IMG/VR virus record: IMGVR_UViG_3300032805_000004
Coordinates: 1 to 64,000 of that record
Reading direction: 5' to 3' (one strand)
DNA length: 64,000 nucleotides
Origin: a virus
The notes beneath the pieces were generated by a model, which did not search any database, was not told the DNA's origin, and worked only from the letters and a program-made list of their open reading frames with translations. The first letter of the stretch is position 1, and the number at the start of each line of letters is the position of its first letter. The translations under genes and the position numbers were made by a program. Below are positions 7,601-27,800 of the stretch, piece by piece.

Positions 7601-7665
7601 GGCGGGATGTACGCAGCAGAATCCGCGATGAACTGGGCTACCGCAGGCGGGAGCTCATCTGCCAC
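4639..7665 (-). CDS. Tape measure protein
   Basis: 1008 aa, Ala-rich helical; AMDANPIG motif, Trp-periodic repeats, ISPSKKF C-terminal motif. Confidence 0.92.
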   Translation of the reverse strand: MADELPPAVAQFIADSAAYIPPIDEMIDKTNQLADAQDRVKDVNVKATADVTDADTKLQEVQAQADKLAGTTDSIKVTGDISDADAKLQTVQAEADKVASTADTIKVTADITDADAKFATVQAEADKVAGTAANIKVTADVSDVTAKLDQVKAEEAALSDKTIHITVDTSDADSKLSALGNVGDEAATKLDHVRSSSNVASDALKDVGDKSQESSTLMDLMGGSTIKATTSFAGLIGPIAAAVAAAVPLAPAFIGASGGVAAFGAMAAPTIMGVVKNMQMMSDAQQKYDTAATASAKNKALAQIKADWASIPPEQQQVITAIQGFEKEFNNLAKALQPDILSIFNKGLDVLRTILPSVQGLAIIAGNALDQMMTVIQQHTPQIIDFIHQLGQLAQVALPAIGQLTGSLINLFVQLTTALAPVATPLINFFNELVKALTGPLVAAFKVLGQLMLALGQAITPLLPSLSQLATALITDIGAAFQSITPVVTQIIQILGKDLIAILQAAKPIIENFLTPNSPFISALKMIPGLLNAINPLIQAFIAVLSNPIVSRIAVDILSAVAAFKGLQLAIGLVTTAASGISSAFTFIVGIPAMIRGAVQAFKDLEIAQKAATAAQWLLDAAMDANPIGAVILLIVGLVAAFVILWVKCAAFRDFWKGIWNDVVGAIQLAGQLIEAAWNTVVSFLTSAILGMPQAFEQVVSAAEAIWNGLVSYLSGIWNTIQSDATSAWNSFTNFITNAVTGLVTVAESQWNGLVSYLSGIWNTIQSDATSAWNSFTNFITNAVTGLVTVAESQWNGLVSYLSGIWNSISSNAESAWNSFVSWFQGIPGQIVNAFANLPAQMVNIGTNIINGLINGISSAATGLFNYVTQVANSVVSTFANAIASISPSKKFHQQGEYIIQGLVNGMRYREHEAHDFMRRFGRDLQTSFAVTPGLVNRFTGTNVSAFPGLGSATGYATSGGGGNVIQNFNIQGSVVAETTLRQIAQQGVLRYTRRNPGNGWFLAGRQS
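5244..5547. repeat. Perfect 132-bp tandem repeat (about 2.3 copies) inside tape measure
   Basis: Unit starts at 5244, 5376 and 5508; encodes the 44-aa repeat WNGLVSYLSGIWNTIQSDATSAWNSFTNFITNAVTGLVTVAESQ. Confidence 0.9.
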
Positions 7666-7686
7666 GGCTCACACCCCCGCCCTGGG

Positions 7687-8124
7687 TCATGCGCCGTAAA
7701 CCGACTGCTGGAACGCCTCCACAGCCTTATTCCGCAGACTCCCATCCGCCACGATCAAATCCAGCGCGGGCCGCAGATACGGCCGCGGCGGCAGATGTGT
7801 CTTATGCCCCCGCCCGGCGTTCCCCCCGAGCTCGTGGATACGCGCGTACACCGTCGTTGCCCCGACCTGCGTCTGCCAGCGTGTCCCGGCCCCGGTGACC
7901 GGGTCCGCGCGCACCGAACGCCGCAGATCACCGCCGACCATCGCCGGTGGCATACCCGGCTGCGACGGCGTCGGCGTCCCCTTCACATGCGACGACAAAC
8001 CCAGTTGGAGCATGGTGGCGCGGACCATCACCGCACCCATCGCGTCCGCCGCCGCCCGGCACCCATCCGGCGCCTTATCCTTCATCCCCTGCAGCCGGAT
8101 CGCGATCTCGCGCACGTCACCCAT
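7687..8124 (-). CDS. HK97 gp10-like tail completion protein
   Basis: GDLRRSV...VYARIHELGG...LPPRPYLRPA motifs; ATG at 8124 after GGAGG. Confidence 0.8.
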   Translation of the reverse strand: MGDVREIAIRLQGMKDKAPDGCRAAADAMGAVMVRATMLQLGLSSHVKGTPTPSQPGMPPAMVGGDLRRSVRADPVTGAGTRWQTQVGATTVYARIHELGGNAGRGHKTHLPPRPYLRPALDLIVADGSLRNKAVEAFQQSVYGA

Positions 8125-17800: not shown

Positions 17801-17843
17801 GGAGGGCCCCTTTCTCTTAGACCTTTGCATATAGAATGTGTCT

Positions 17844-18650
17844 GTGAGCGGAAAGCGCGGCGGCTACTCGCCCCCATGGACCGATGAAAACGTGCAGTTC
17901 CTGCGCGACAACTACGCGACTATGACCGCATCGCAGATCGCCGAGAAAATCGGGCGAACCTGCATCGCAGTTCACGTGCGCGCACACCTTGAGGGCCTCA
18001 AATCCCTGCACCGCACAGGCGTCAACTCGCTCATCCCCGGCTACTTCCGGGTCATCGACACGCCAGTTAAGGCGTATTTGCTCGGCCTCCTCGTAGCCGA
18101 CGGCTCAATGTCGAAAGCAGGCCAGCTCAAACTGGAGCTGCACGAGAAGGACGCCTGCCTAGTTGAGCTAGCGCGCGACGAGATCGCACCAGGCGCCCGG
18201 ATCGGGCATTACCGGACCCGTACCACTCCGATGGTCCGGTTCATGGTCAGCGCACCGGATCTCGTGGCCGACCTCGCCAGCCACGGTGTGGTTAATGCTA
18301 AGAGCCTCATCACCCGCTGGCCCGACGATGTACCGCCCAAGCTTGAGAGCAGTTACATGTGTGGCTATTTCGATGGTGACGGCAGCCTTCGCGCAGAACC
18401 GCCGTACCGGTGGACGGTCGTCTCCGGAAACCCGGACTTCCTTGAGGTGATGCAGGACCGCATCAAGACGCACACGGGCGTCAAAGTCGGCGGCCCTTAC
18501 CGGGACACGCGGCACAAAGCGGCGTGGTCGATCGTGGCGACCGGCAAGCCAGTCCAGGCACTAGATGCATGGCTGCACCGCGACGTACCCGGACTGGCCC
18601 GCAAACGGCTCCCGCAACCCAGCCAGATGGAACTGGACATTACGGGATAA
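17844..18650 (+). CDS. Free-standing LAGLIDADG homing endonuclease with N-terminal HTH (convergent with capsid gene)
   Basis: YLLGLLVADG and YMCGYFDGDG; WT......L....MT..QIA..IGRT HTH; TAGAAT 6 nt before GTG 17844 (alternative start 17838). Confidence 0.9.
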   Translation: MSGKRGGYSPPWTDENVQFLRDNYATMTASQIAEKIGRTCIAVHVRAHLEGLKSLHRTGVNSLIPGYFRVIDTPVKAYLLGLLVADGSMSKAGQLKLELHEKDACLVELARDEIAPGARIGHYRTRTTPMVRFMVSAPDLVADLASHGVVNAKSLITRWPDDVPPKLESSYMCGYFDGDGSLRAEPPYRWTVVSGNPDFLEVMQDRIKTHTGVKVGGPYRDTRHKAAWSIVATGKPVQALDAWLHRDVPGLARKRLPQPSQMELDITG

Positions 18651-18655
18651 AACGG

Positions 18656-18746
18656 TCAAGAATACGGAGTTGTGTCACTGACTTGCAACCCCTGGAGAAT
18701 ACCGGAGTAGAAAGGCGCCGACGCAACGAGGGCGCCAAAGAGGAAG
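18656..18746 (-). CDS. Major capsid exon 4 (missed by ORF track)
   Basis: Follows terminal G at 18747; encodes FLFGALVASAPFYSGILQGLQVSDTTPYS*. Confidence 0.8.
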
Positions 18747-21700
18747 CGATCTGTTACCCCCCGCTAAGCGGGTGGGCTGGTCATTTCTGCCAGCCTCTGC
18801 ATCTTTCCCATCGATGCAGACCGGACTGTCTCACGCTCTGCGGCCGGGCGCCCGTAATGCCCCGGGTGGCCGTCCATAACACAGAGCCAGCACGTACAGT
18901 CTCTACACTGCGGCGGGCATCGCCGCAGCTCGGGATTCCCCAGCAATTGGAGGGGTTCCCCGAACAGTGCCGTTTTCCACGGCAGGTCACCCTGCCGCGC
19001 CACCCATTCAGTTCAGCGAGAACTGGACGTTGTTGATGGAATAGCGGAACGAGGCATCGATGACGGGCCAGGCGATAGACGCGTAATCTTGTACACACGT
19101 CATTTCCCAGGCATTAGCGACATTCGTCCACGTCTGTGGCAACTGGTAGGACATCAGGAGTGCGGTGCCCTGGGTGAGCCACGGGTGGACGACCAGCTTG
19201 AGGATGGATCGGGTGATGGGGTTCTGGAACTCGCTGACCGCTGCGCCGACGCGGACGCCGGCGACGTCGGGCTGGTCGAGGAACAGCCGGTAGTTCGTGG
19301 CCGTGCCCTGCGAGATCACATCGTTGGACAGGCGCATGATGTCGCCGCCGTCACCGACCAGCTCAGCCGGGTCAGCGCGGAACGCACCCGGCGTAGTAGA
19401 ACCGGTCTGCGACTCCCACAACGCGTCAAGCGCCGTGTAGATGGTGTTGTACCCGAGGTGGGTGCCCACACCCTGGTTGACGTAACCGCCCTGCCAGTTC
19501 GCCGGGTACACACCCGCAGTCGCGGACCTGCCGGTCAGGGTGGGGATGATCCCCTCCATGCGGGTCGCCGCACCAGTACCGGTGTCAGCCGCCGGCGGCG
19601 CCGCAGTCGTAGTGATGATCGCACCCTGAACCGTGTAGCGGAGACCGCCGATCCCGGACACCTGCTTGAGGCAGGCCGTCGAAGCCGACGCGCCTGTAGC
19701 GGAGAAGGCGTAGATATTCCACGACAGGGCACCTGGCGGCAGGGTCACCGTCAGGTCAAACACGGATGTACCGGACGTGTACACGGCGTCGATCACATTG
19801 GATGCGACGGTTTCGCCGTAGTAGTTGGTTGCGGTCACACAGAACGACAGGTGAGTGCTGACGTCCGTTACTGCGGTCTCGTTCGAGCCGGGAGTCCGGG
19901 CAGTCGCCGACACCAGCGTTGGCGGTATCAGGGTTGTCGATGTGCCGGCGAGCATCATGTACTCTTCCGCGCTGTTACCTCTCGCTTACTGAAAAGCGAG
20001 CGGGCTGGTCATTTCTGCCAGCCTCTCATGCTTTCACATGAGGCCGGACCATATCTTCACCCCACGTGGGGTGCCACGTACATGGTCTCTGAACCATCCC
20101 GTCGGAGCGAATCCAGGCGGGCTCGGCTGCTGATTTTCCCTACCCTTGGCTTCTCGAACCGTCGCGCTCGGGCTTTCGCCCCACGCTGTGGTGCCAAGGT
20201 CTAACAGGATGTCCCAGCAATTCTCGCGGTTTAGGCTGGGCAAAGAGGTCTCAACCCAGCATCATTTCCTGTAGCAAAATGCACGCTTGTTACTCACCAT
20301 CCCTGGGATGGCGGGGCTGGTCATTTCTGCCAGCCTCTGCACGTCTCCGTGCAGGTCAGACTATGTCTCCATCTGGTTTAGGTATCGGACGCAGGTTTCT
20401 TGCCCCTCCGGCTGCGGATGATCGCAACCGGGTCCTCCTCCGGATACAGGCCGAACCGCTTAACGAGATGCTCAACACAGCCATCTACATCGGCTTCGAC
20501 CTGCTCGTTGGTGAACCGGACGACCGTGTAGCCAGCATCGCTGAGCGCGGCATCGCGCTGCCTGTCGAACTCTGCGGCTGCTGGCATCTGGTGTCCCCAG
20601 CTGTCGATCTCAACAATGACCGGCTGCTGGTGGAGCTTGATGTCAGGGTAGTAGCGGTCCAGCTCGCGAGACTGTGTCTCGAAGCTGAGCGCGGCCCTGA
20701 TTAGTGTCTGCTGGAACAACTGCTCCTGCGGCGAGTTCATCTTCGGCGACTGCAATCCGAGTCGCCGGAATCGCTCACGCTGGGCTCCCTGGAAGGCGCC
20801 GCGTTCTGTAGCTTCGCGGCGCTTCTCGTACTGCTCCGGCCCCCATGTCCAGCCGTCGTGGCCGCTCCTGCGCATTTCCGTACCAGACATCCAGAGCCGC
20901 AGGTAGATGCTGCTCTGACTGCTGTGGAATCGCTCAGCAAGTTCAGAGGCGGTAGCGCCGTCCTCGTAGAGCTTGCGAAGCTCGTCAGGGTCTAGGTGTT
21001 CTTGCCGCCATCGTCTACGGCTGTTGACGCCTAGTTCTTTGGCCTTGCGGCTGACGGTTTCGGGAGCGACACCGTACTCCTTCGCTACGGCCTTGAAGGA
21101 ACCCAGTCGTTCGTAGTCCGCCCGGAGGTTGTTCCAGTCCAATCCAGATGCTCCGCGTGTAGTCGTTACGGCTCGCCCGCTACGTGCGGGATTGCCTCGG
21201 CGTTGTCCACATGACCCATCATATCATGGATGATGATGGCGAAGGAGGTTCACCGATACAGCGGAGATCCCATCCGCACGTCACCGTGCGGTGGCCCCCT
21301 AATTGAGGTTTGCTAGCGCGGAAATGTCTTCGAATCCTTGCCCGGCGAATTGGGCGAGCCAGGAAAGGGATTCCGTAAGCCCGAAGAAGCGGTACGGTAC
21401 CGCCAGATTCACTTCGGTCTGTGCGCCGGCGCCTGGCAGGTTGTTCGGCCAGTTCGCGGCACCGAGGCCACCGCCGGCCTGCACCAGTTCGGGGATCGAG
21501 ATGTCGACGACGCCCTGGCCGCCGGTCTGTGATCCGGAGATGCCGGTGATGACACGTTCTTGCCGCATGGTGCCTTGGCCTTGTGGCCGAGGTAGCTTGT
21601 TGCGGAAAACGGTATAAACCGGATAAATGAGACGAGATGGTGCAAGAAGGTCAAACGGGACCAAACCGGACACGGTGCCGATCCCGAGATTCCCTGCGGT

Positions 21701-22105
21701 GAAGGACTTGAGCGCGTCGGCGCCGCCGGGCATGCCGCTCACGAGCTGGGTGAGCTGGTCACCGATCGACGGCATCGACAGGGCGGCCTTCAACCGGCCG
21801 AACTGGTTGAGGAAGCCCTGGTCGAAGCCTTTGTTGACGACCGCGTGTTTGTCGTTGTAGCCGCGCCATGTTTCGGTGCGGAGTGCCATGGTGGCGGTGT
21901 GGGTGCGGGTAGCGATGTCGGCCTGGTCGGTCAGCGGGGTGTTCCCGCCGGGCTGGGAGAACCCGGCGCCTTTGACCATGGCAGGCATCCGGGCTTTGAT
22001 CATGTCGCCGGTGCCGCGTGCCCCGGCTGATTCTGCTGCGGCCTGCTCGAAGACGCCGCCGGGGGCGGTCGCTCCGTCGATGGCCGGCGGTGTGGTGGTT
22101 GCCAC
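18656..22105 (-). CDS. Major capsid protein, 4 exons: join(complement 22105-21306, 20281-20254, 19967-19036, 18746-18656), 616 aa
   Basis: Exon lengths 800+28+932+91=1851 nt form one open frame: ...ISALANL|ILLQEMMLG|EEYMMLAG...FRYSI|FLFGALVASAPFYSGILQGLQVSDTTPYS*; follows the prohead protease; PFDL..P....YP...FRN.LPR capsid-type motif. Confidence 0.88.
18747..19035 (-). ncRNA. Group I intron 3 (289 nt, ORF-less)
   Basis: Exon ends CCAU pairing with GUGG (U-G at splice site); P3 CGGCAC/GUGCUG; P7 GACUG/CAGUC; terminal G. Confidence 0.88.
19036..19967 (-). CDS. Major capsid exon 3
   Basis: Corresponds to ORF 19008-19958, extended to EEY at 19967. Confidence 0.85.
19968..20253 (-). ncRNA. Group I intron 2 (286 nt, ORF-less)
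   Basis: P1 CUGGGU/GCCCAG; AAUUGCUGGGA (P) and AAUCAGCAG (Q) elements; P7 GACCA/UGGUC in AAGAUAUGGUCC; terminal G. Confidence 0.9.
20254..20281 (-). CDS. Major capsid micro-exon 2 (28 nt)
   Basis: C ATT TTG CTA CAG GAA ATG ATG CTG GGT lies between a terminal G and a U-G P1; restores the frame. Confidence 0.85.
20378..21142 (-). CDS. Intron-encoded HTH + Vsr/DUF559-like homing endonuclease
   Basis: Two HTH repeats; SPQE...YYPDI...VEIDSWGH...DRQRD..L...GYTVVRFTN. Confidence 0.88.
   Translation of the reverse strand: MDWNNLRADYERLGSFKAVAKEYGVAPETVSRKAKELGVNSRRRWRQEHLDPDELRKLYEDGATASELAERFHSSQSSIYLRLWMSGTEMRRSGHDGWTWGPEQYEKRREATERGAFQGAQRERFRRLGLQSPKMNSPQEQLFQQTLIRAALSFETQSRELDRYYPDIKLHQQPVIVEIDSWGHQMPAAAEFDRQRDAALSDAGYTVVRFTNEQVEADVDGCVEHLVKRFGLYPEEDPVAIIRSRRGKKPASDT
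21218..21226 (-). promoter_or_regulatory. Extended -10 promoter (TGn-TATGAT) inside intron 1, probably driving the endonuclease
   Basis: TGATATGAT about 75 nt upstream of TTG 21142. Confidence 0.45.
21306..22105 (-). CDS. Major capsid exon 1
   Basis: ORF 21299-22105; its TAG lies in the intron P1 loop; GGAGG RBS. Confidence 0.85.
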
Positions 22106-22132: not shown

Positions 22133-24850
22133 CTAGGGGAGTCCGAGGAGCCGCTGGATCGCCTTGTAGGCGTTTTCGCGGGTCGCCGGGTCCGGGTCGG
22201 TGCGCCACGTCTGGGTGAGGTCGTTCAGCAGCGTCCCTTGTGCGGTGGACGCTGCTTTCTGGACCGCGCTGGCAGGCTCCGCCTGGGCACGCGCGGGCGG
22301 GTAGCCGGACATGAGTCCCTTGAATGGGGGGTCTCGCGGGTCCGGCATGCGTGCCATTTCCTCGACCTGGGCCCGGAGTTCGTCGTAGTCGCGCCGCGAC
22401 TTTTCGAGCTGGGCGTGCAGATCACCGATCTGCTTGGTGAGGTCTGGGCTGGTGATGGTGTTGCCGACCGCCGCCTTGTTGACGGTGGAAGTTTTGTCGG
22501 TCCCGGCCTGTGGTGGTGGGACTGGCTCGGGTTCGGCTGTCTTAGTCACATCCGGTTCGGGCTGGGCCGCGGGCGGCTGGGCCGTCTTGCCGGACATGGG
22601 GCACAGGTCGGGGAACGTCTGCGCGATGTGGTCGTGCATGGACTGCATCGCGCTGCGGGCCGAGTCGCGGGTGGCGTTCGTGTAGAAGGTGCGGCCTGGG
22701 CGTCCCGTCGCCGCGGGCGGCGTGACTTTGTCGTTGGAGCCCTCGTCGCTGGACGGGGACGGCCGTTCGTGGCCGGCGGTGACCGGGCCGCGGTTGTAGT
22801 CACCCGCGTCCGGCCTGGTCGTCGGAACTTTCACGTCCGGTTTGCCGACGGTGTAGCCGGTGGAGGGCCGTTCATGCCCGGCGGTGAGCAGCGGCCGGTT
22901 GTACCGCCCGGCCTGCATGTCCCCTGGTGTCAGCGGTGAACCGGGGCCGGGGTTGGCGTCCTGGAACGCCTTGTGGAGCTCGTCGTGGACGCGGGCCAGC
23001 TCATCCGGGCTGGCCTCTTTCAGGGTTTCGGCGTGCCGCCACAGATCGGTCGCGTGGCGGGCTTCGTCGATGGGTGCCCCGGCGGCCTTGTCGACTGCGC
23101 GGTCCCGCCAGTAGCTGATGTCGACGGCGTCGCGGACGTCGGCGAGCCACGGGTAGGTGTCGCCGAGGGTTTTCGCTGAGTAGGCGGGGCAGAGCAGGTC
23201 GTGGAGGATCGCTTCGCCGGGGTGGGCGCCGGTGGCGGCGCGGCGGCGGGCGGCTTTCACCTCGAGCGGCGCGTCGGGGACGGTCGGCAGCCCGGCGTCG
23301 TGTTCGAGTGCTTCGATGGCGGGGCCGTCGGGTTCGCGGTGTTCCGGTACCGGATCGACGTTGATGCCCATTGCGTCGTCGCCGGGGGTGGGCTTGGCGG
23401 TCTTCTCTACGGCAGGGAGTTTCTTCCCGCAGTTCTCGCAGAATCTCGCCGGCGAGTCGGAGTGGTAGTTTTTCCCGCAGCCGTGGCAGGCTTTGCCGCC
23501 GGATTTGAACGCGGCCTGCGGCAGGCTGCCGCCCACCTGCTTCTTCGTGGTCTCTTCCTCGCCGGGGCCGCCGGGAGTGATGGCGCCGTCGCCGGCGCAG
23601 TCGGGGCATCTGCGGTTGCCGGCGAGGATTTTGCCGGAGCCCTTGCATGTCTTGCACTTCGTACCGGCCGTTTTGACCGCTGCGGCGCCCTTGGCTGCTT
23701 TGCGGGCGGCCTTGGCGGCCTTCTTCCCGGCCATCTCGTCCCGCCATGCCTGCGGCAGCTCCGCCACAAACGACGGGCCTTTCCGCTTGGCGATGCGGAT
23801 GATGTTCGACTTCAGTTTGTCTGAGCTGAAATTGTCTGCGCCTGCGCGGCCGATGGATGATGCGGCATCGGACACGTCGCCGGGTGTGACGATCGGGAAG
23901 GACCGGTTTTTCCCGGCGAAGTCCTCGGCGGGGATCTTGTCGCGGTCTACGCCGCCTCCGACGTCGGGGTCCATCTTGCGTTTGCTGATGCTGGGGGCGC
24001 CGCCGGTTTTGCCTACTTGTTCGTCGGCGTCGTCGGCTTCGATTTCGGCGTCGCTGGCCTCGGCGTCCTTCTGCTCACCCGAGTCGTCGCCGGATGCCCC
24101 ATCCCCATCGTCTCCGTCATCGTCCCCGTCGTCCCCGTCGTCCCCGTTTCCATCCCCGTCGTTGTCATCACCGGCCTTACCGTTGCTACCGTTGCTGCTA
24201 CCGCCTTTCTCCAGCTCGGCGCGCAGCCGCAGCAGTTTCGCCATGTCCGCCGGGGTGAACGTCACCGTCCCCGTGATCCCGCCGTCGTCTGGTGCGGCGG
24301 CCTTCGCGAGGAAATCCTCCGCGCCGAACACCTTCCCCGTCAGCTCCGCCGTCCCATCCGCAGCCGACTTCACCAGCTGGATGGAGCAGTTACCATTCGC
24401 CGGCCGGTCCACCAAGCTGAGCTCAGACAGCACCCCGCCTTTGATCAGGCCACCGCGGGCCTTACCGGTGATATCCCGTTCAATCACCGGCCGGGAGATC
24501 CCCACGCTGTAGGCGCGCAGTACCCCTTTCTCGACGAGACGCTTCGCTACGGGTTCGACGATGAGGGCCTTGACGTAGTGACCGTCCTCGGTGAACTCAA
24601 CACCGACGCCTTTACCGGCCGGGTCGCGCTGCGCCTGATGCTGGACGCGGACGTTCCCGCCTGTCTCCAGCCAGTCGGCGAGCGCTTTCCGGGACCAGGC
24701 CGGGTCCACGATTTGCTCATCGCTGTCCACGGTCCCGTCTGTAGCGCGGCCAAAGACCAGGAGATCCCCGTCTGCGTCCTTCTCGAATTTTTCGATGGGG
24801 AAGTGGGCGTAGGTGAGCAGATCGCTGTCAGCGGTCATTGTGGCGGCCAC
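22133..24850 (-). CDS. HK97-type prohead protease fused to scaffold/accessory domains
   Basis: VDSDEQIVD...VRVQH...YSVGI...ELSLVDRPAN; acidic linker, DFAGKNRSFPI domain, Zn ribbons, C-terminal coiled coil; GTG 24850 after AGGAGG. Confidence 0.85.
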   Translation of the reverse strand: MAATMTADSDLLTYAHFPIEKFEKDADGDLLVFGRATDGTVDSDEQIVDPAWSRKALADWLETGGNVRVQHQAQRDPAGKGVGVEFTEDGHYVKALIVEPVAKRLVEKGVLRAYSVGISRPVIERDITGKARGGLIKGGVLSELSLVDRPANGNCSIQLVKSAADGTAELTGKVFGAEDFLAKAAAPDDGGITGTVTFTPADMAKLLRLRAELEKGGSSNGSNGKAGDDNDGDGNGDDGDDGDDDGDDGDGASGDDSGEQKDAEASDAEIEADDADEQVGKTGGAPSISKRKMDPDVGGGVDRDKIPAEDFAGKNRSFPIVTPGDVSDAASSIGRAGADNFSSDKLKSNIIRIAKRKGPSFVAELPQAWRDEMAGKKAAKAARKAAKGAAAVKTAGTKCKTCKGSGKILAGNRRCPDCAGDGAITPGGPGEEETTKKQVGGSLPQAAFKSGGKACHGCGKNYHSDSPARFCENCGKKLPAVEKTAKPTPGDDAMGINVDPVPEHREPDGPAIEALEHDAGLPTVPDAPLEVKAARRRAATGAHPGEAILHDLLCPAYSAKTLGDTYPWLADVRDAVDISYWRDRAVDKAAGAPIDEARHATDLWRHAETLKEASPDELARVHDELHKAFQDANPGPGSPLTPGDMQAGRYNRPLLTAGHERPSTGYTVGKPDVKVPTTRPDAGDYNRGPVTAGHERPSPSSDEGSNDKVTPPAATGRPGRTFYTNATRDSARSAMQSMHDHIAQTFPDLCPMSGKTAQPPAAQPEPDVTKTAEPEPVPPPQAGTDKTSTVNKAAVGNTITSPDLTKQIGDLHAQLEKSRRDYDELRAQVEEMARMPDPRDPPFKGLMSGYPPARAQAEPASAVQKAASTAQGTLLNDLTQTWRTDPDPATRENAYKAIQRLLGLP

Positions 24851-24888
24851 ACGCCTCCTAGGCGGGGATGACGGACAGTGGAAGGTGT

Positions 24889-27800
24889 TCAGGCGGGCCG
24901 CAGGAGGACCGCGGGTTGCTGCGTGATGAGCTGCTGCCCCGGCGGGTCGATGTGCGCGGGGGCAGCAGGGGCGATACGCCCTGGTGGGGTGACATCGACG
25001 CCCATAGGTGGTGCGAAGACGACGTCGATGGTCATCGGTGCCGCCGGGTTGATGACGATGGTCATCGGTGCTGCGGGTGCGGCGAGAACCGTGACGGGTG
25101 GCGGCACCGCCGCCGGCGGCGGCGGTGGCAGGTTGACCGGGCCGGTGATGCCGTGCGGGATGGTGACCCCGCGTGCGGGTGGCGACTGGAACCTGATGAT
25201 CGGGACCGTCGGCTGCGGCGTGCCCAGCGGCGGCGGTGGTGTGACGACCCGGGAGGCGAACCCGCGCCACAGAACCCGGTGCGGGGCTGGCCGGATCGCC
25301 TGCGGCGGCAGCGGCCGGTGCAGTACCGGGAGGCTGCCGAGCGGGGTGACGATCGCAGATGCGATCCCTGCGGCGATCTGGCCGCGTGGGCCGACCTGTG
25401 CCCGCGCCGGACTGGGCCGTTTAACCTGCGGCGCGGGCCGCTGGTAGGCGGTGACAACGGGTGGCGCCGGCGGCAGGTTGGTCGGGCCGTGAACAGGGCG
25501 GGGGCCTGTGTGGGCGCGTGCCGGTGGTGGTGGCCGGTATTCGACGATCGGGACGGTTGGCTGCGGCGCGCCCAGTACCGGGGGTTTGGCGACGGCCAAA
25601 CCGTGCCAGATAGCCCGTGCCGGGGTGGGACGCCGGATCTGCGGTGCGATGCGCTGGTAGGCGGTGACCGGGATGGGCGGCGGGGCGGCGGGGCCGGCGG
25701 CTCCGTACCACAAGACGCGCCGTGGCGGCGGCGGCCGGTATTCGACAACCGGGACAGTGGGCTGGGGTGTGCCGAGCGCGCGGAGTATGTAGGAGGCGAT
25801 GCCACCTGCGGTGCTCCCGTGCCCGACCCAGGCGCGGGCCGGGGCCGGGCGGCGGATCTGCGGTGCGATGCGCTGGTAGGCGGTGACAACCGGCGGTACC
25901 GGGGTGACGATCCGGGATGCGACACCGCCGGCCAGGGCTCCCCGCGGGCCGAGGCATGCGCGGTGCGGTGCGGGACGCTTGACCTGGACCGGTGGGCGCC
26001 GGTAGGCGGTGACGACCGGTATGAACGGCGGCGCAGACCCCGCGAGGCCGCCCCGCAGTCCACGGGGGACACGTACCGGCGGCCGGTATTCGACCACCGG
26101 GACTGTGGGCTGGGGGACGCCGGGGGGGATCGGGGGGTAGACGAGGGACCGCTGGATGTGCCCGGCGCGCAGGAAGACGACGCGGACACCGGCTGGCTGC
26201 GGAAGCCCGGGTGTGACGGCCGGCTGGTAGGGCGAAACGGCGGAGGTGAATACCCGGCCGTAGCGGCTGAGCGGCCCTCCGCTGCCGCCGGTAGCTGCGG
26301 GTGCGGCGGCAGCGGCACCGGATGCGGGCAGCGGCGAGACGGGCAGCCGGGCGGTGACCGGGCCATGGAGCGGGTAGAACTGTGGCCCGGCTGTACCTGG
26401 GGGCAGGTTGGTGAGGCCGCGGACGCCGCCGGCGACTGGGTTGTGGCCGGTCCATGCGCGGGTGATCTTCGGCGGGAACTGCGGGATCTTGCGCGCTGGC
26501 GGGGTCGACCCGAGTGGGGTGACAATCCGTGACGCGATACCGGCGCCCAGCGCGTCCCGGGCACCGGTTCTGGCGCGTGCGGGGGCAGGGCTGCGGAAGA
26601 TGAACGGGTACGGGCGGGCTGGTGTTCCGTACGGGGATGGGTTGACCAGCCCTATCTGGCCGGCGCCGACGGTACGCCGCCCGGCGGTAGCGCGCGTGGT
26701 TTTCGGCGGGAAGATCGGGACTTTCCGCGCGGGCGGGATCTGCCCTAGCGGGGTAATGATCTGCGAGGCGTAACCGGTGGCGGGCAGGCCGCGGGGGCCG
26801 AGGTGCGCCCGCGCGGGTGCGGGACGCTTGACCTGGACCGGTGGCCGCTGGTAGGCGGTGACGACCGGTGGCAGGTTCTGGGTGGCGAGCCCGCGCCACA
26901 GGATCCGGTGCGGCGGGTGCTGGATGACCGGCCGGGGTGGCGGCTTCGGGGCGCTGCCCAGCGGGGTGGCAACCGCAGAGGCGATACCGGACGCTGCCAG
27001 GCCACGCGGGCCGAGCCTGCCACGCGCCGGGGCGGGGGACCGGAAGACGAACGGCTTCGGCCGTGACGGTGTCCCAAGCGGCGGTGTGACGGCTGTGGCG
27101 GCGATACCGCCCGCGACCACACCACGGCCGATCCGGGCACGTGCCGGTATGACGGACCGGAAGACGATCGGTGAGATGAACGGCTGCGGGTAACCCAGCG
27201 GGGTGACGATCTGCGACGCGAGACCATCGCCGCATGCCAGGTTGCTGCCGAGCCGGGCACGGGCGGCCGGCGGGGACCGGAATATGAACGGGTGTGTCCG
27301 CAGCGCCGCCACAGCCGACGGGTAGTTTCGGGTGGCGACGCCGCGCCACAGCACCCGCCGTGGGGGCAGATGCTGGATGACGGGCCGTGGGGCAGGCTGC
27401 GACGGTGAACCAAGCGGGGTCGAAACCGCGCTTGCGACACCGCCCGCAGCCTGACCACGCAGGCCAAGCCGTGCCCTCGCCGGGGGGACGTGGACGAAGA
27501 CGGGGCGGGGCGGTGGCTGCTGCCGGAACCCGAGCGGGGTGACAATCTGGGATGCGACCCCGGCGGCGAGGAATGTGCCGGGGCCGATCTTTGCCCGGTG
27601 CGGCGGCAGGTGAACGATGACCGGACGCGGCGCAGGCTGCGGCGGGTAGCCCAGCGGTGTCACAACATGGGATGCGACACCTGCTGCAACTGTTCCGCGT
27701 GGCCCGCAGCGGGCACGAGCAGGCGCCGGGCTGCGGAACACGAACGGTTTCGGCGTTGCAGCCGCGCCGAGCGGGGTCTGCACCCCGCTGCGGCCAGCGC

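What the first reader, a model, noticed from the sequence alone, without database searches (positions are those of the whole stretch)
18656..22105. Major capsid gene split by three group I introns with a 28-nt micro-exon
Seen: three segments each start after a U in a U-G P1 helix and end in G. Their P7 helices covary (GACUA/UAGUC, GACCA/UGGUC, GACUG/CAGUC). Removing them gives one 1851-nt ORF. Introns 1 and 2 are separated by only 28 nt (ILLQEMMLG). Known: phage group I introns mostly sit in DNA-metabolism genes and only occasionally in structural genes. Three in the most abundant virion protein is unusual, and standard annotation would fragment the gene. Inference: capsid output depends on three splicing events, which could act as a timing control. 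Skipping the micro-exon would frameshift.
Basis: partly seen in the sequence, partly recalled or inferred. Interest (0 to 1): 0.88.

Follow-up and report, generated by a model that had tools for sequence, protein, structure and literature searches.

The report
Phage capsid gene with three introns
The main head-protein gene of an uncultured wetland phage is cut into four pieces, one only 28 bases long, by three self-splicing-type (group I) introns. The case is real and cleanly defined, but it belongs to a kind of gene interruption already known in phages.

Summary
On the minus strand, four exons (22105-21306, 20281-20254, 19967-19036, 18746-18656) join into one 1851-nt, 616-aa frame. That frame aligns without gaps across both junction zones with 19 uninterrupted homologues.

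A modelled homologue has the HK97 capsid fold, and the 78-kb virus record holds no second copy of the gene.

All three inserts are group I introns of one large family:
- I2 scores 49.9 bits on Rfam RF00028, against a cut-off of 50. Its relatives score 51-83 bits. One of them sits at exactly the I2 site in another capsid gene whose exons 1 and 2 are contiguous.
- I3 fits a P1-P9.2 structure with strong covariation across 12 relatives.
- A covariance model built only from non-window relatives finds I3 (E 5e-26) and I1 (E 6.5e-15) and nothing significant elsewhere in the window.

Each intron follows a U that pairs with G in P1, and each ends in G. I1 carries an HTH+DUF559 endonuclease gene in its P8 loop. 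A LAGLIDADG-like gene abuts the capsid stop codon.

No RNA data exist, so splicing itself is inferred and the timing-control idea is untested.

Published precedents are Twort orf142 (three introns, 23-nt exon), crAss Zeta-group capsid genes, and mycobacteriophage LittleE. Earlier notes of this scan report similar cases on other DNA. This is a new member of a known kind.

The parts
21306..22105 (-). Exon 1 of the capsid gene. It is 800 nt, starts at GTG 22105 and ends ...GCA AAC CU.
   Evidence: ORF list. Matches phrog_13692 profile positions 23-138. Matches homologue P0003 residues 15-259, E 4e-66. Junction alignment.
20282..21305 (-). Intron 1 (1024 nt), a group I intron. Helices: P1 CCUC/GGGG with U21306-G; P2 21291-21274; P3 21266-21261 with 21156-21151; P7 GACUA 21164-21160 with UAGUC 20363-20359; P8 CAUCUGG 21150-21144 with CCAGAUG 20376-20370, enclosing the ORF. 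P9, P9.1 and P9.2 follow, and the last base is G20282.
   Evidence: Model R1, built without window sequences, scores 63.3 bits, E 6.5e-15, on 21293-21149. RF00028 gives a partial hit on 20368-20339. P1 fold.
20378..21142 (-). ORF inside intron 1 (254 aa): HTH domains plus a DUF559/Vsr-like nuclease domain. It is a candidate homing endonuclease and lies in the P8 loop.
   Evidence: Pfam DUF559 at 46 bits (cut-off 20.6) and HTH_7 at 31.5 bits. Homologues lie inside capsid-gene introns of L025, L045/L054 and L024.
20254..20281 (-). Exon 2, the 28-nt micro-exon. It supplies the last base of a Leu codon plus ILLQEMMLG.
   Evidence: The nine residues are conserved without a gap in 19 homologues. The same sequence is contiguous with exon 1 in L070.
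19968..20253 (-). Intron 2 (286 nt, no ORF). Helices: P1 CUGGGU 20259-20254 with GCCCAG 20241-20236; P10 CUCUUU 20247-20242 with GAAGAG 19967-19962; P7 GACCA 20087-20083 with UGGUC 20051-20047. The last base is G19968.
   Evidence: RF00028 scores 49.9 bits, E 8.4e-11. The fold z-score is -5.1. An intron at the same site in L070 passes Rfam's cut-off at 51.4 bits.
19036..19967 (-). Exon 3 (932 nt), running from EEYMMLAG to FRYS plus AU.
   Evidence: phmmer finds 119 representatives at E<=1e-10, and full-length ones align to it at about residues 270-600. Matches phrog_13692 profile positions 191-470.
18747..19035 (-). Intron 3 (289 nt, no ORF). Helices: P1 19039-19035 with 19004-19000 (U19036-G); P2 18999-18978; P3 18972-18967 with 18893-18888; P4-P6 18962-18908; P7 18901-18897 with 18828-18824; P8 18886-18836; P9 18819-18797; P9.1 18795-18775; P9.2 18772-18760. 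The last base is G18747.
   Evidence: Covariation on alignment A2 shows 89% of cells paired and 40 pairs changed on both sides. R1 scores 104.8 bits, E 5e-26. The fold z-score is -3.35.
18656..18746 (-). Exon 4 (91 nt): the last base of an Ile codon, then FLFGALVASAPFYSGILQGLQVSDTTPYS and the stop.
   Evidence: The C-terminus is conserved in homologues. Matches P0003 residues 606-635 at 80% identity. L034 has the same exon behind the same intron.
17838..18650 (+). Free-standing LAGLIDADG-like endonuclease gene, convergent on the capsid gene. It ends 5 nt from the capsid stop codon.
   Evidence: phrog_4645 'endonuclease' E 1.8e-32. Pfam LAGLIDADG_3 scores 21.0 bits, below its 22.5 cut-off. A 77%-identical copy sits at the same place in L034, which also has intron 3.
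18775..18795 (-). Copy of the 21-nt P9.1 hairpin GGCUGGCAGAAAUGACCAGCC. Identical copies lie at 20003-20023 and 20315-20335.
   Evidence: There are three copies in the 78-kb record, all in this gene. Exact copies occur in 67 other viral loci.
22133..25270 (-). Upstream neighbour with a prohead-protease-like domain. This is context for naming the split gene a capsid gene.
   Evidence: Weak PHROG hits to head maturation protease families, and phrog_21715 at E 1e-13.

Best explanation
The gene at 22105-18656 (minus strand) encodes the phage's only HK97-fold major capsid protein. It is interrupted by three group I introns of one widespread family found in uncultured phages.

The primary transcript has to lose all three introns by the standard group I pathway. 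A guanosine attacks after the U of the P1 U-G pair. The freed 5' exon then attacks after the terminal G of the intron.

The 28-nt exon 2 serves two roles. Its first bases are the 3' exon of intron 1. Its last six bases (CUGGGU) are the P1 substrate of intron 2.

The introns are mobile or once-mobile selfish elements, not a device of the phage. I1 carries its own HTH+DUF559 endonuclease gene in P8. ORF-less I3 is probably mobilised by the adjacent free-standing LAGLIDADG-like gene. I2 is an ORF-less intron shared at the same site with a relative.

What is shown: the exon structure, the fold, the RNA family membership, and the covariation. What is inferred: actual splicing, self-sufficiency of the ribozymes, and endonuclease activity and targets.
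For: 1. The exons join to a 616-aa frame that aligns without gaps with 19 uninterrupted homologues across both junction zones.

2. L070 encodes ALANLILLQEMMLG contiguously and has an intron only at the I2 site. Its P1 is the same as in I2. Its P10 changes in step with a synonymous exon change: UUCUUU/GAAGAA there against CUCUUU/GAAGAG here.

3. I2 scores 49.9 bits on RF00028, E 8e-11. Seventeen relatives score 51-83 bits, above the cut-off.

4. For I3-type introns, the hand-drawn P1-P9.2 structure pairs 89% of cells against 34-42% when the partner strand is slid. Forty pairs change on both sides. None of 500 shuffles reached these values.

5. Model R1, built from 11 relatives without any window sequence, hits I3 (E 5e-26) and I1 (E 6.5e-15). 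It finds nothing else significant in 64 kb.

6. All three 5' splice sites show a U-G pair in P1, and all three introns end in G.

7. I1's P7 and P8 strands pair across the 765-nt ORF.

8. The AlphaFold model of homologue P0003 (pLDDT 77) matches phage capsid proteins including HK97 at E down to 2.5e-11.

9. The record holds no second capsid copy.

10. The phage DNA is present in five wetland metagenome runs, which may include its source sample.
Against: There is no RNA evidence of any kind. RF00028's curated cut-off is not reached by any of the three introns: I2 misses by 0.1 bit, and I1 and I3 are not found as whole introns. I1's P1 is only 4 bp, and I could not find a convincing P10 for I1 or I3. 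The capsid assignment rests on a modelled homologue and on gene order, not on a Pfam capsid family (none matched) or on virion data. The record is about 84% complete, so a second capsid gene in the missing part cannot be excluded.
Confidence: 0.9

Rival explanations
1. The introns are genuine group I RNAs but do not splice on their own. They would need a protein helper, such as a host factor or one of the two endonuclease-like proteins acting as a maturase. This differs from the best explanation only in the cofactor.
For: I1 has a short P1 and an 800-nt insert in P8. LAGLIDADG proteins are known to act as maturases in organelles (general knowledge). The P9.1 loop is conserved, and its stem covaries in L025, which could mark a protein-binding site.
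Against: ORF-less relatives with the same hairpin occur in many loci without a nearby endonuclease gene. The cores are complete, and phage group I introns generally self-splice in vitro (general knowledge).
Confidence: 0.2
2. Splicing of the three introns, or skipping of the micro-exon, is used by the phage to time or limit capsid production.
For: Exon skipping around a 23-nt exon is reported for Twort orf142 and around a 34-nt exon in Coxiella 23S rRNA (PMC10136302). Here skipping would shift the frame (800 + 932 nt).
Against: Close relatives manage with none, one or other sets of introns at other sites. That pattern is expected of selfish invasion rather than a conserved regulatory device. 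No expression data exist.
Confidence: 0.08
3. The gene is a decaying pseudogene, or the contig is a defective phage. One or more introns no longer splice and no functional capsid protein is made from this locus.
For: Splicing is unverified. I1's P1 is weak. The record is incomplete.
Against: All four exons keep an open, conserved frame with about 55% identity to homologues and no stops. All core helices are intact in all three introns. The sequence recurs in five metagenome runs. No other capsid gene is in the record.
Confidence: 0.04
4. The 28-nt segment is not an exon. I1+E2+I2 would be one composite insert, or the inserts would be removed at the protein level (inteins) or bypassed by the ribosome.
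For: Rfam's alignment of I2 extends over the micro-exon as if it were P1/P2.
Against: The nine residues it encodes are conserved without a gap in all 19 homologues, and joining E1 directly to E3 shifts the frame. In L070 the same bases are plain coding sequence. The inserts carry in-frame stops within 2-9 codons and contain no intein domains. L025 has an analogous 27-nt exon between two introns.
Confidence: 0.01

Closest known systems
Staphylococcus phage Twort orf142 (Landthaler and Shub 1999, as described in PMC10136302)
   Same: One phage gene holds three group I introns, and two of them flank a very short exon (23 nt there, 28 nt here). Exon skipping is a known risk in that arrangement.
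   Different: The gene and host type differ: this is a high-GC wetland phage with an HK97-fold capsid gene. The two flanking introns here are of different subtypes, and the upstream one holds a DUF559 endonuclease gene. Splicing here is unverified.
Capsid-gene introns of mycobacteriophage LittleE and lactococcal phage Tuc2009 (PMC3706429)
   Same: A group I-type intron sits in a major capsid gene of a phage. In LittleE the host is also high-GC Gram-positive, the exon ends in U, the intron ends in G, and a LAGLIDADG gene lies on the opposite strand.
   Different: Those genes have a single intron. In LittleE the LAGLIDADG gene lies inside the intron, whereas here it is free-standing just past the stop codon. 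LittleE splicing was proven by RT-PCR and N-terminal sequencing.
Intron-rich capsid genes of crAss-like Zeta/Delta phages (PMC7886860), and multi-intron terL/pol genes of Jug phages (PMC12880540) and Bastillevirinae (PMC11878797)
   Same: Core phage genes, including the capsid gene (five fragments in one Zeta genome), are split by several group I introns, which breaks standard annotation.
   Different: The phage lineages and intron families differ. Micro-exon anatomy and RNA structures were not worked out for the crAss capsid gene.
Collaborative homing of an ORF-less intron with a free-standing endonuclease (cyanophage psbA, Zeng, Bonocora and Shub 2009; recalled from memory, not read here)
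   Same: An ORF-less intron (I3) lies about 100 nt from a free-standing endonuclease gene. The two co-occur in L034 and are both absent from L070, L025 and L045.
   Different: The cleavage site and activity are untested. The co-occurrence rests on two closely related contigs.

Membership tests
Group I intron (Rfam RF00028) | 5' splice site follows a U that forms a U-G wobble pair in P1 with an internal guide sequence | tested here: met
   I1 CCUC/GGGG, I2 GCUGGGU/GCCCAGC and I3 CCAUC/GGUGG all appear in local minimum-energy folds. The positions are fixed independently by the protein alignment.
Group I intron (Rfam RF00028) | Intron ends in G (omega G) at the 3' splice site | tested here: met
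   G20282, G19968 and G18747. Relatives show the same UAACA(R)-NNNG tail.
Group I intron (Rfam RF00028) | Conserved core P3-P9 with the P3/P7 pseudoknot, supported by covariation | tested here: met
   For I3-type introns, P2, P3, P4, P6, P7, P8, P9 and P9.2 all have compensatory changes and 89% of cells pair. I1's 5' half fits the same model at E 6.5e-15, and its P7/P8 pair across the ORF. I2 aligns to RF00028 over all 253 positions.
Group I intron (Rfam RF00028) | Score at or above Rfam's gathering cut-off (50 bits) | tested here: not met
   I2 scores 49.9 bits. I1 gives only a 20-bit partial hit. I3 gives none. Seventeen I2-type relatives score 51-83 bits. I3-type introns are missed by this model.
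Group I intron (Rfam RF00028) | Guanosine-dependent splicing with exon ligation | not testable with these tools
   No RNA run holds the sequence. It needs an in vitro or in vivo assay.
HK97-fold major capsid protein | HK97 fold (spine helix, A and P domains) | tested here: met
   Tested on homologue P0003, which is 55% identical to exon 3. The AlphaFold model has pLDDT 77 and pTM 0.70. Foldseek's top hits are all phage capsid proteins, E 2.5e-11 to 1e-4, including HK97 1ohg. The window's own joined protein was not folded.
HK97-fold major capsid protein | Match to a curated capsid sequence family | tested here: not met
   No Pfam family matches either large exon. The PHROG match is to phrog_13692, annotated 'unknown function'.
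HK97-fold major capsid protein | Position in the head module next to the protease or scaffold, as a single copy | tested here: met
   The upstream gene has weak head-protease hits. Only one set of capsid pieces is in the 78-kb record.
Homing endonuclease, DUF559/Vsr-like (I1 ORF) | Nuclease domain match and location inside an intron loop | tested here: met
   Pfam DUF559 scores 46 bits against a cut-off of 20.6. The ORF is bounded by the P8 strands. Homologues lie in other capsid introns. Cleavage activity was not tested.
LAGLIDADG homing endonuclease (17838-18650) | Two LAGLIDADG motifs or a family-model match | tested here: inconclusive
   Pfam LAGLIDADG_3 scores 21.0 bits, below its 22.5 cut-off. 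phrog_4645 'endonuclease' gives E 1.8e-32. The motif-like stretches LLVADGS and YFDGDGS are visible. The only PDB hit is I-MsoI at E 0.21.

The most novel reading that the evidence does not exclude
The stretch encoding the capsid spine helix (ALANLILLQEMMLGEEY) may be a recurrent landing zone where related introns re-target by small shifts. The window and L025 both carry a homologous upstream intron and a second intron flanking a 28- or 27-nt exon, but the two splice sites are displaced by 9 and 10 nt. In both loci the upstream intron's guide reads a ...CCU site. If so, this phage clade could show how group I introns move to nearby ectopic sites, by reverse splicing or by drift of endonuclease specificity. 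It could also show how ORF-less introns pair up with free-standing endonucleases.
Probability: 0.2. Interest if true: 0.55.

Novelty: new member of a known kind. Interest (0 to 1): 0.35.

Why it matters
For annotation, gene callers break this capsid gene into fragments. The protein databases already hold such fragments, for example P0001 and P0007, which start at exon 3's Met. Rfam's model also misses two of the three introns.

For biology, this is a clean high-GC phage example of a capsid gene that depends on three ribozymes and on a 28-nt exon shared between two of them. It also points to a large, mostly unannotated intron family: 67 other viral loci share the 21-nt hairpin. That family repeatedly invades this capsid gene at different sites.

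It does not open a new kind of mechanism.

Tried and rejected
- A megablast of the locus against GenBank phages found no match. A tblastn of exon 3 found only a distant Thermoanaerobacterium phage hit. No cultured relative is available.

- Pfam found no capsid family for the exons.

- The Rfam gathering scan of the window found nothing, and the sensitive scan added only I2. A weak LOOT RNA match (26 bits against a 46.4 cut-off) overlaps I2's 3' hairpins. I read it as a by-product of those hairpins.

- No RNA holder is listed among public runs, so expression and splicing could not be examined.

- Laying contigs of four wetland DNA runs gave only short, fragmented pieces. No contig joined cleanly across an intron, so I found no intron-less allele. 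The joints listed do not coincide with splice sites.

- I first read I3's AAUUGCUGGGG as a P4 strand, from its likeness to I2. Alignment with relatives showed it is the P5 loop and 3' strand, so I dropped that reading.

- An alternative 3' splice site directly after the conserved UAACAG was considered. It is rejected because it breaks the frame, and because L070 and L034 place the junction 4 nt further on.

- PDB sequence searches with the two endonuclease-like ORFs gave nothing useful.

- The intron subgroup (IA, IB or IC) was not determined, because no subgroup models were available.
Full report
**What is there**

The gene lies on the minus strand.

| Part | Coordinates | Length |
|---|---|---|
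| E1 | 22105-21306 | 800 nt |
| I1 | 21305-20282 | 1024 nt |
| E2 | 20281-20254 | 28 nt |
| I2 | 20253-19968 | 286 nt |
| E3 | 19967-19036 | 932 nt |
| I3 | 19035-18747 | 289 nt |
| E4 | 18746-18656 | 91 nt |

The exons sum to 1851 nt and give a 616-aa frame with no internal stop. Unspliced, the frame stops 2 codons into I1 and 9 codons into I3.

**Are the junctions real?**

A phmmer search of 1.8 billion representative proteins with exon 3 found 119 proteins at E<=1e-10. Many are 560-635 aa long and align to exon 3 at about residues 270-600. That leaves room for exactly the lengths of E1+E2 and of E4.

I aligned the joined product with 19 such full-length proteins. There were no gaps in either junction zone:
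- ...GQGFEDISALANL-ILLQEMMLG-EEY... is the best conserved motif of the family.
- ...FRYSI-FLFGALVASAPFYSGILQGLQVSD..TTPYS matches to the last residue.

One viral locus, L070, encodes ALANLILLQEMMLG as uninterrupted DNA and has an intron only at the I2 position. Another, L034, has the I3 intron and exon 4 (96.6% identical protein) at the same site.

**Is it the capsid gene?**

Pfam gives nothing. Both large exons hit one PHROG of unknown function, collinearly.

I modelled homologue P0003 with a 50-sequence alignment, giving pLDDT 77 and pTM 0.70. Foldseek against the PDB returns only phage major capsid proteins at the top: Pa223, SPO1, SU10, D3, T5 and HK97 itself, at E 2.5e-11 to 1e-4.

The upstream gene has weak prohead-protease matches. 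The whole record is an IMG/VR virus contig of 78,255 bp, about 84% complete. It contains no other copy of this protein.

From the homologue's model, I1 and I2 fall inside the long helix at P0003 residues 253-275, and I3 falls inside a core beta strand. Calling that helix the HK97 spine helix is my inference.

**Are the inserts group I introns?**

*I2.* Rfam RF00028 aligns over all 253 model positions at 49.9 bits, E 8e-11, which is 0.1 bit under the curated cut-off.
- Its P1 is CUGGGU/GCCCAG with the splice-site U paired to G.
- The bases just 5' of the guide (CUCUUU) pair with the first six bases of exon 3 (GAAGAG), forming P10.
- In L070 the same-site intron has UUCUUU opposite GAAGAA. That is a compensatory change tracking a synonymous codon change.

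*The family.* All three introns carry the identical 21-nt hairpin GGCUGGCAGAAAUGACCAGCC near the 3' end. The only three copies in the record are in this gene.
- An exact-match scan of IMG/VR found it in 67 further loci, 76 instances in all.
- In each it is followed by a variable hairpin and a UAACA(R)NNNG tail.
- Seventeen I2-type relatives in 16 of these loci pass RF00028's cut-off at 51-83 bits.

*I3.* RF00028 does not see it. I aligned it with 11 I3-type relatives and drew P1, P2, P3, P4, P5, P6, P7, P8, P9, P9.1 and P9.2 on it.
- 89.3% of cells form standard pairs, against 34-42% when the 3' strands are slid by 1-3 columns.
- Forty of 76 pairs show changes on both sides.
- None of 500 shuffles reached any of the five measures.
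- P2, P3, P6, P8, P9 and P9.2 carry most of the compensatory changes. The fifth P7 pair alternates between A-U and G-C, and the fourth P4 pair among U-A, G-C and C-G.

*I1.* I built a covariance model (R1) of the 5' half, P2 through the 3' strand of P3, from the 11 relatives only, with no window sequence. It was run over the whole window.
- It finds I3 at 104.8 bits (E 5e-26).
- It finds I1 at 63.3 bits (E 6.5e-15).
- Nothing else scored below E 6.
- I1's P7 (GACUA/UAGUC) and P8 (CAUCUGG/CCAGAUG) strands lie on either side of the 765-nt ORF and are complementary. RF00028 picks up its J8/7-P7-P9 part.
- Its P1 is only CCUC/GGGG, but it forms in the local minimum-energy fold with the U-G pair at the splice site.

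**Endonucleases**

The I1 ORF (21142-20378) has HTH domains and a DUF559/Vsr-like nuclease domain, Pfam 46 bits. It sits in the P8 loop. Homologues lie inside capsid-gene introns of L025, L045/L054 and L024.

A convergent LAGLIDADG-like gene (17838-18650, plus strand) ends 5 nt from the capsid stop. A 77%-identical copy occupies the same place in L034, which also has I3. It is absent from L070, L025 and L045, which lack an intron at that site. This fits collaborative homing of ORF-less I3, but it rests on two related contigs.

**Wider pattern**

Six other hairpin-bearing loci hold homologues of this capsid gene, and all are split, at several different sites:
- about residues 145-160;
- about residues 240-256;
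- residues 267-277;
- residues 563-587.

This sample was selected for carrying the intron hairpin, so the rate is not a frequency estimate.

L025 has its own pair of introns around a 27-nt exon in the same motif. Its splice sites are shifted 9 and 10 nt upstream of the window's. Its upstream intron is 73% identical to I1's 5' part.

I3-like sequences (77-79% identical) sit at other positions of the capsid gene in L025, L045 and L024. The family therefore moves among sites in this gene.

**How it most likely works**

The capsid mRNA must undergo three independent group I splicing reactions. E2 is both the 3' exon of I1 and the P1 substrate of I2. Joining E1 directly to E3 would shift the frame.

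The introns are best read as selfish, homing-endonuclease-driven elements that target conserved capsid sequence. An intron endonuclease can also serve in phage-phage competition (PMC11620839), which is a possible side benefit here.

Nothing supports a timing function. Close relatives carry other sets of introns or none.

**Limits**

- No RNA run holds the locus.
- Contigs of four wetland DNA runs were too fragmented to show intron-less alleles.
- Splicing, self-sufficiency of the ribozymes and endonuclease activity are inferred.

**Comparison and novelty**

Published cases:
- Three group I introns in one phage gene with a 23-nt exon and exon skipping are reported for Twort orf142, and a 34-nt exon between two introns for Coxiella 23S rRNA (PMC10136302).
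- Capsid-gene introns are reported for LittleE (spliced, LAGLIDADG on the opposite strand) and Tuc2009 (PMC3706429).
- A crAss Zeta-group capsid gene is split into five fragments (PMC7886860).
- Multi-intron terL and polymerase genes occur in Jug phages and Bastillevirinae (PMC12880540, PMC11878797).

Earlier notes of this scan list many capsid genes with several group I introns and micro-exons on other DNA. I did not check those.

This case is a well-resolved new member of a known kind. The modestly new points are the intron subtype that Rfam misses and the repeated, slightly shifted twin-intron arrangement in the spine-helix motif.

Noticed in passing
L025:6560-8030: A related capsid gene has its own twin introns flanking a 27-nt exon (about 7664-7690) in the same ALANLI(M/L)LQEMML motif. 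Its splice sites lie 9 and 10 nt upstream of the window's. Its upstream intron is 73% identical to I1's 5' part, and its guide pairs with GCCCU instead of (A)CCU. This looks like re-targeting of an intron to a nearby similar site.
   Followed up: partly
window 18775-18795, 20003-20023, 20315-20335; loci L004-L070: The 21-nt hairpin GGCUGGCAGAAAUGACCAGCC occurs exactly in 67 other viral loci (76 instances), in introns that otherwise diverge. In L025's second intron the stem covaries (GACGGG/CCCGUC) while the loop CAGAAAUGA is kept. The conserved unit is therefore the loop plus a helix, perhaps a tertiary contact or a protein-binding site.
   Followed up: partly
loci L007, L025, L035, L040, L041, L043, L057, L067 (alignment A2): I3-type introns form a coherent subfamily with strong covariation, yet none was reported above Rfam RF00028's gathering score (for L007, L025, L035, L040; for I3). 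Standard Rfam-based intron screens would miss them.
   Followed up: partly
L024, L045/L054, L025, L034, L070: Homologous capsid genes are interrupted at several other positions (about residues 145-160, 240-256 and 563-587), often with DUF559-type ORFs inside. I3-like sequences (77-79% identical) sit at different sites in different genes.
   Followed up: partly
window 17838-18650 (+) and L034:323-1126: A free-standing LAGLIDADG-like gene sits just past the capsid stop codon. It is present only in the two contigs that carry intron 3, which fits collaborative homing.
   Followed up: partly
window 21297 (run X1): A wetland contig matches I1 from 20165 to 21297 exactly and then continues into unrelated sequence 8 nt short of I1's 5' end. 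The same intron with its endonuclease gene may also sit in another gene or phage in that community.
   Followed up: no
window 22133-25270 (-): The 1045-aa ORF upstream of the capsid gene begins with about 150 Pro/Arg/Ala-rich residues that look like an over-extended frame. The protease-like match covers residues 158-318. The rest has acidic runs and CxxC pairs, so it may be a protease-scaffold fusion.
   Followed up: no
proteins P0001, P0007, P0018: Database proteins begin at the equivalent of exon 3's first Met, and others cover only parts of the protein. Split capsid genes of this family are therefore probably already stored as fragments in public protein collections.
   Followed up: no
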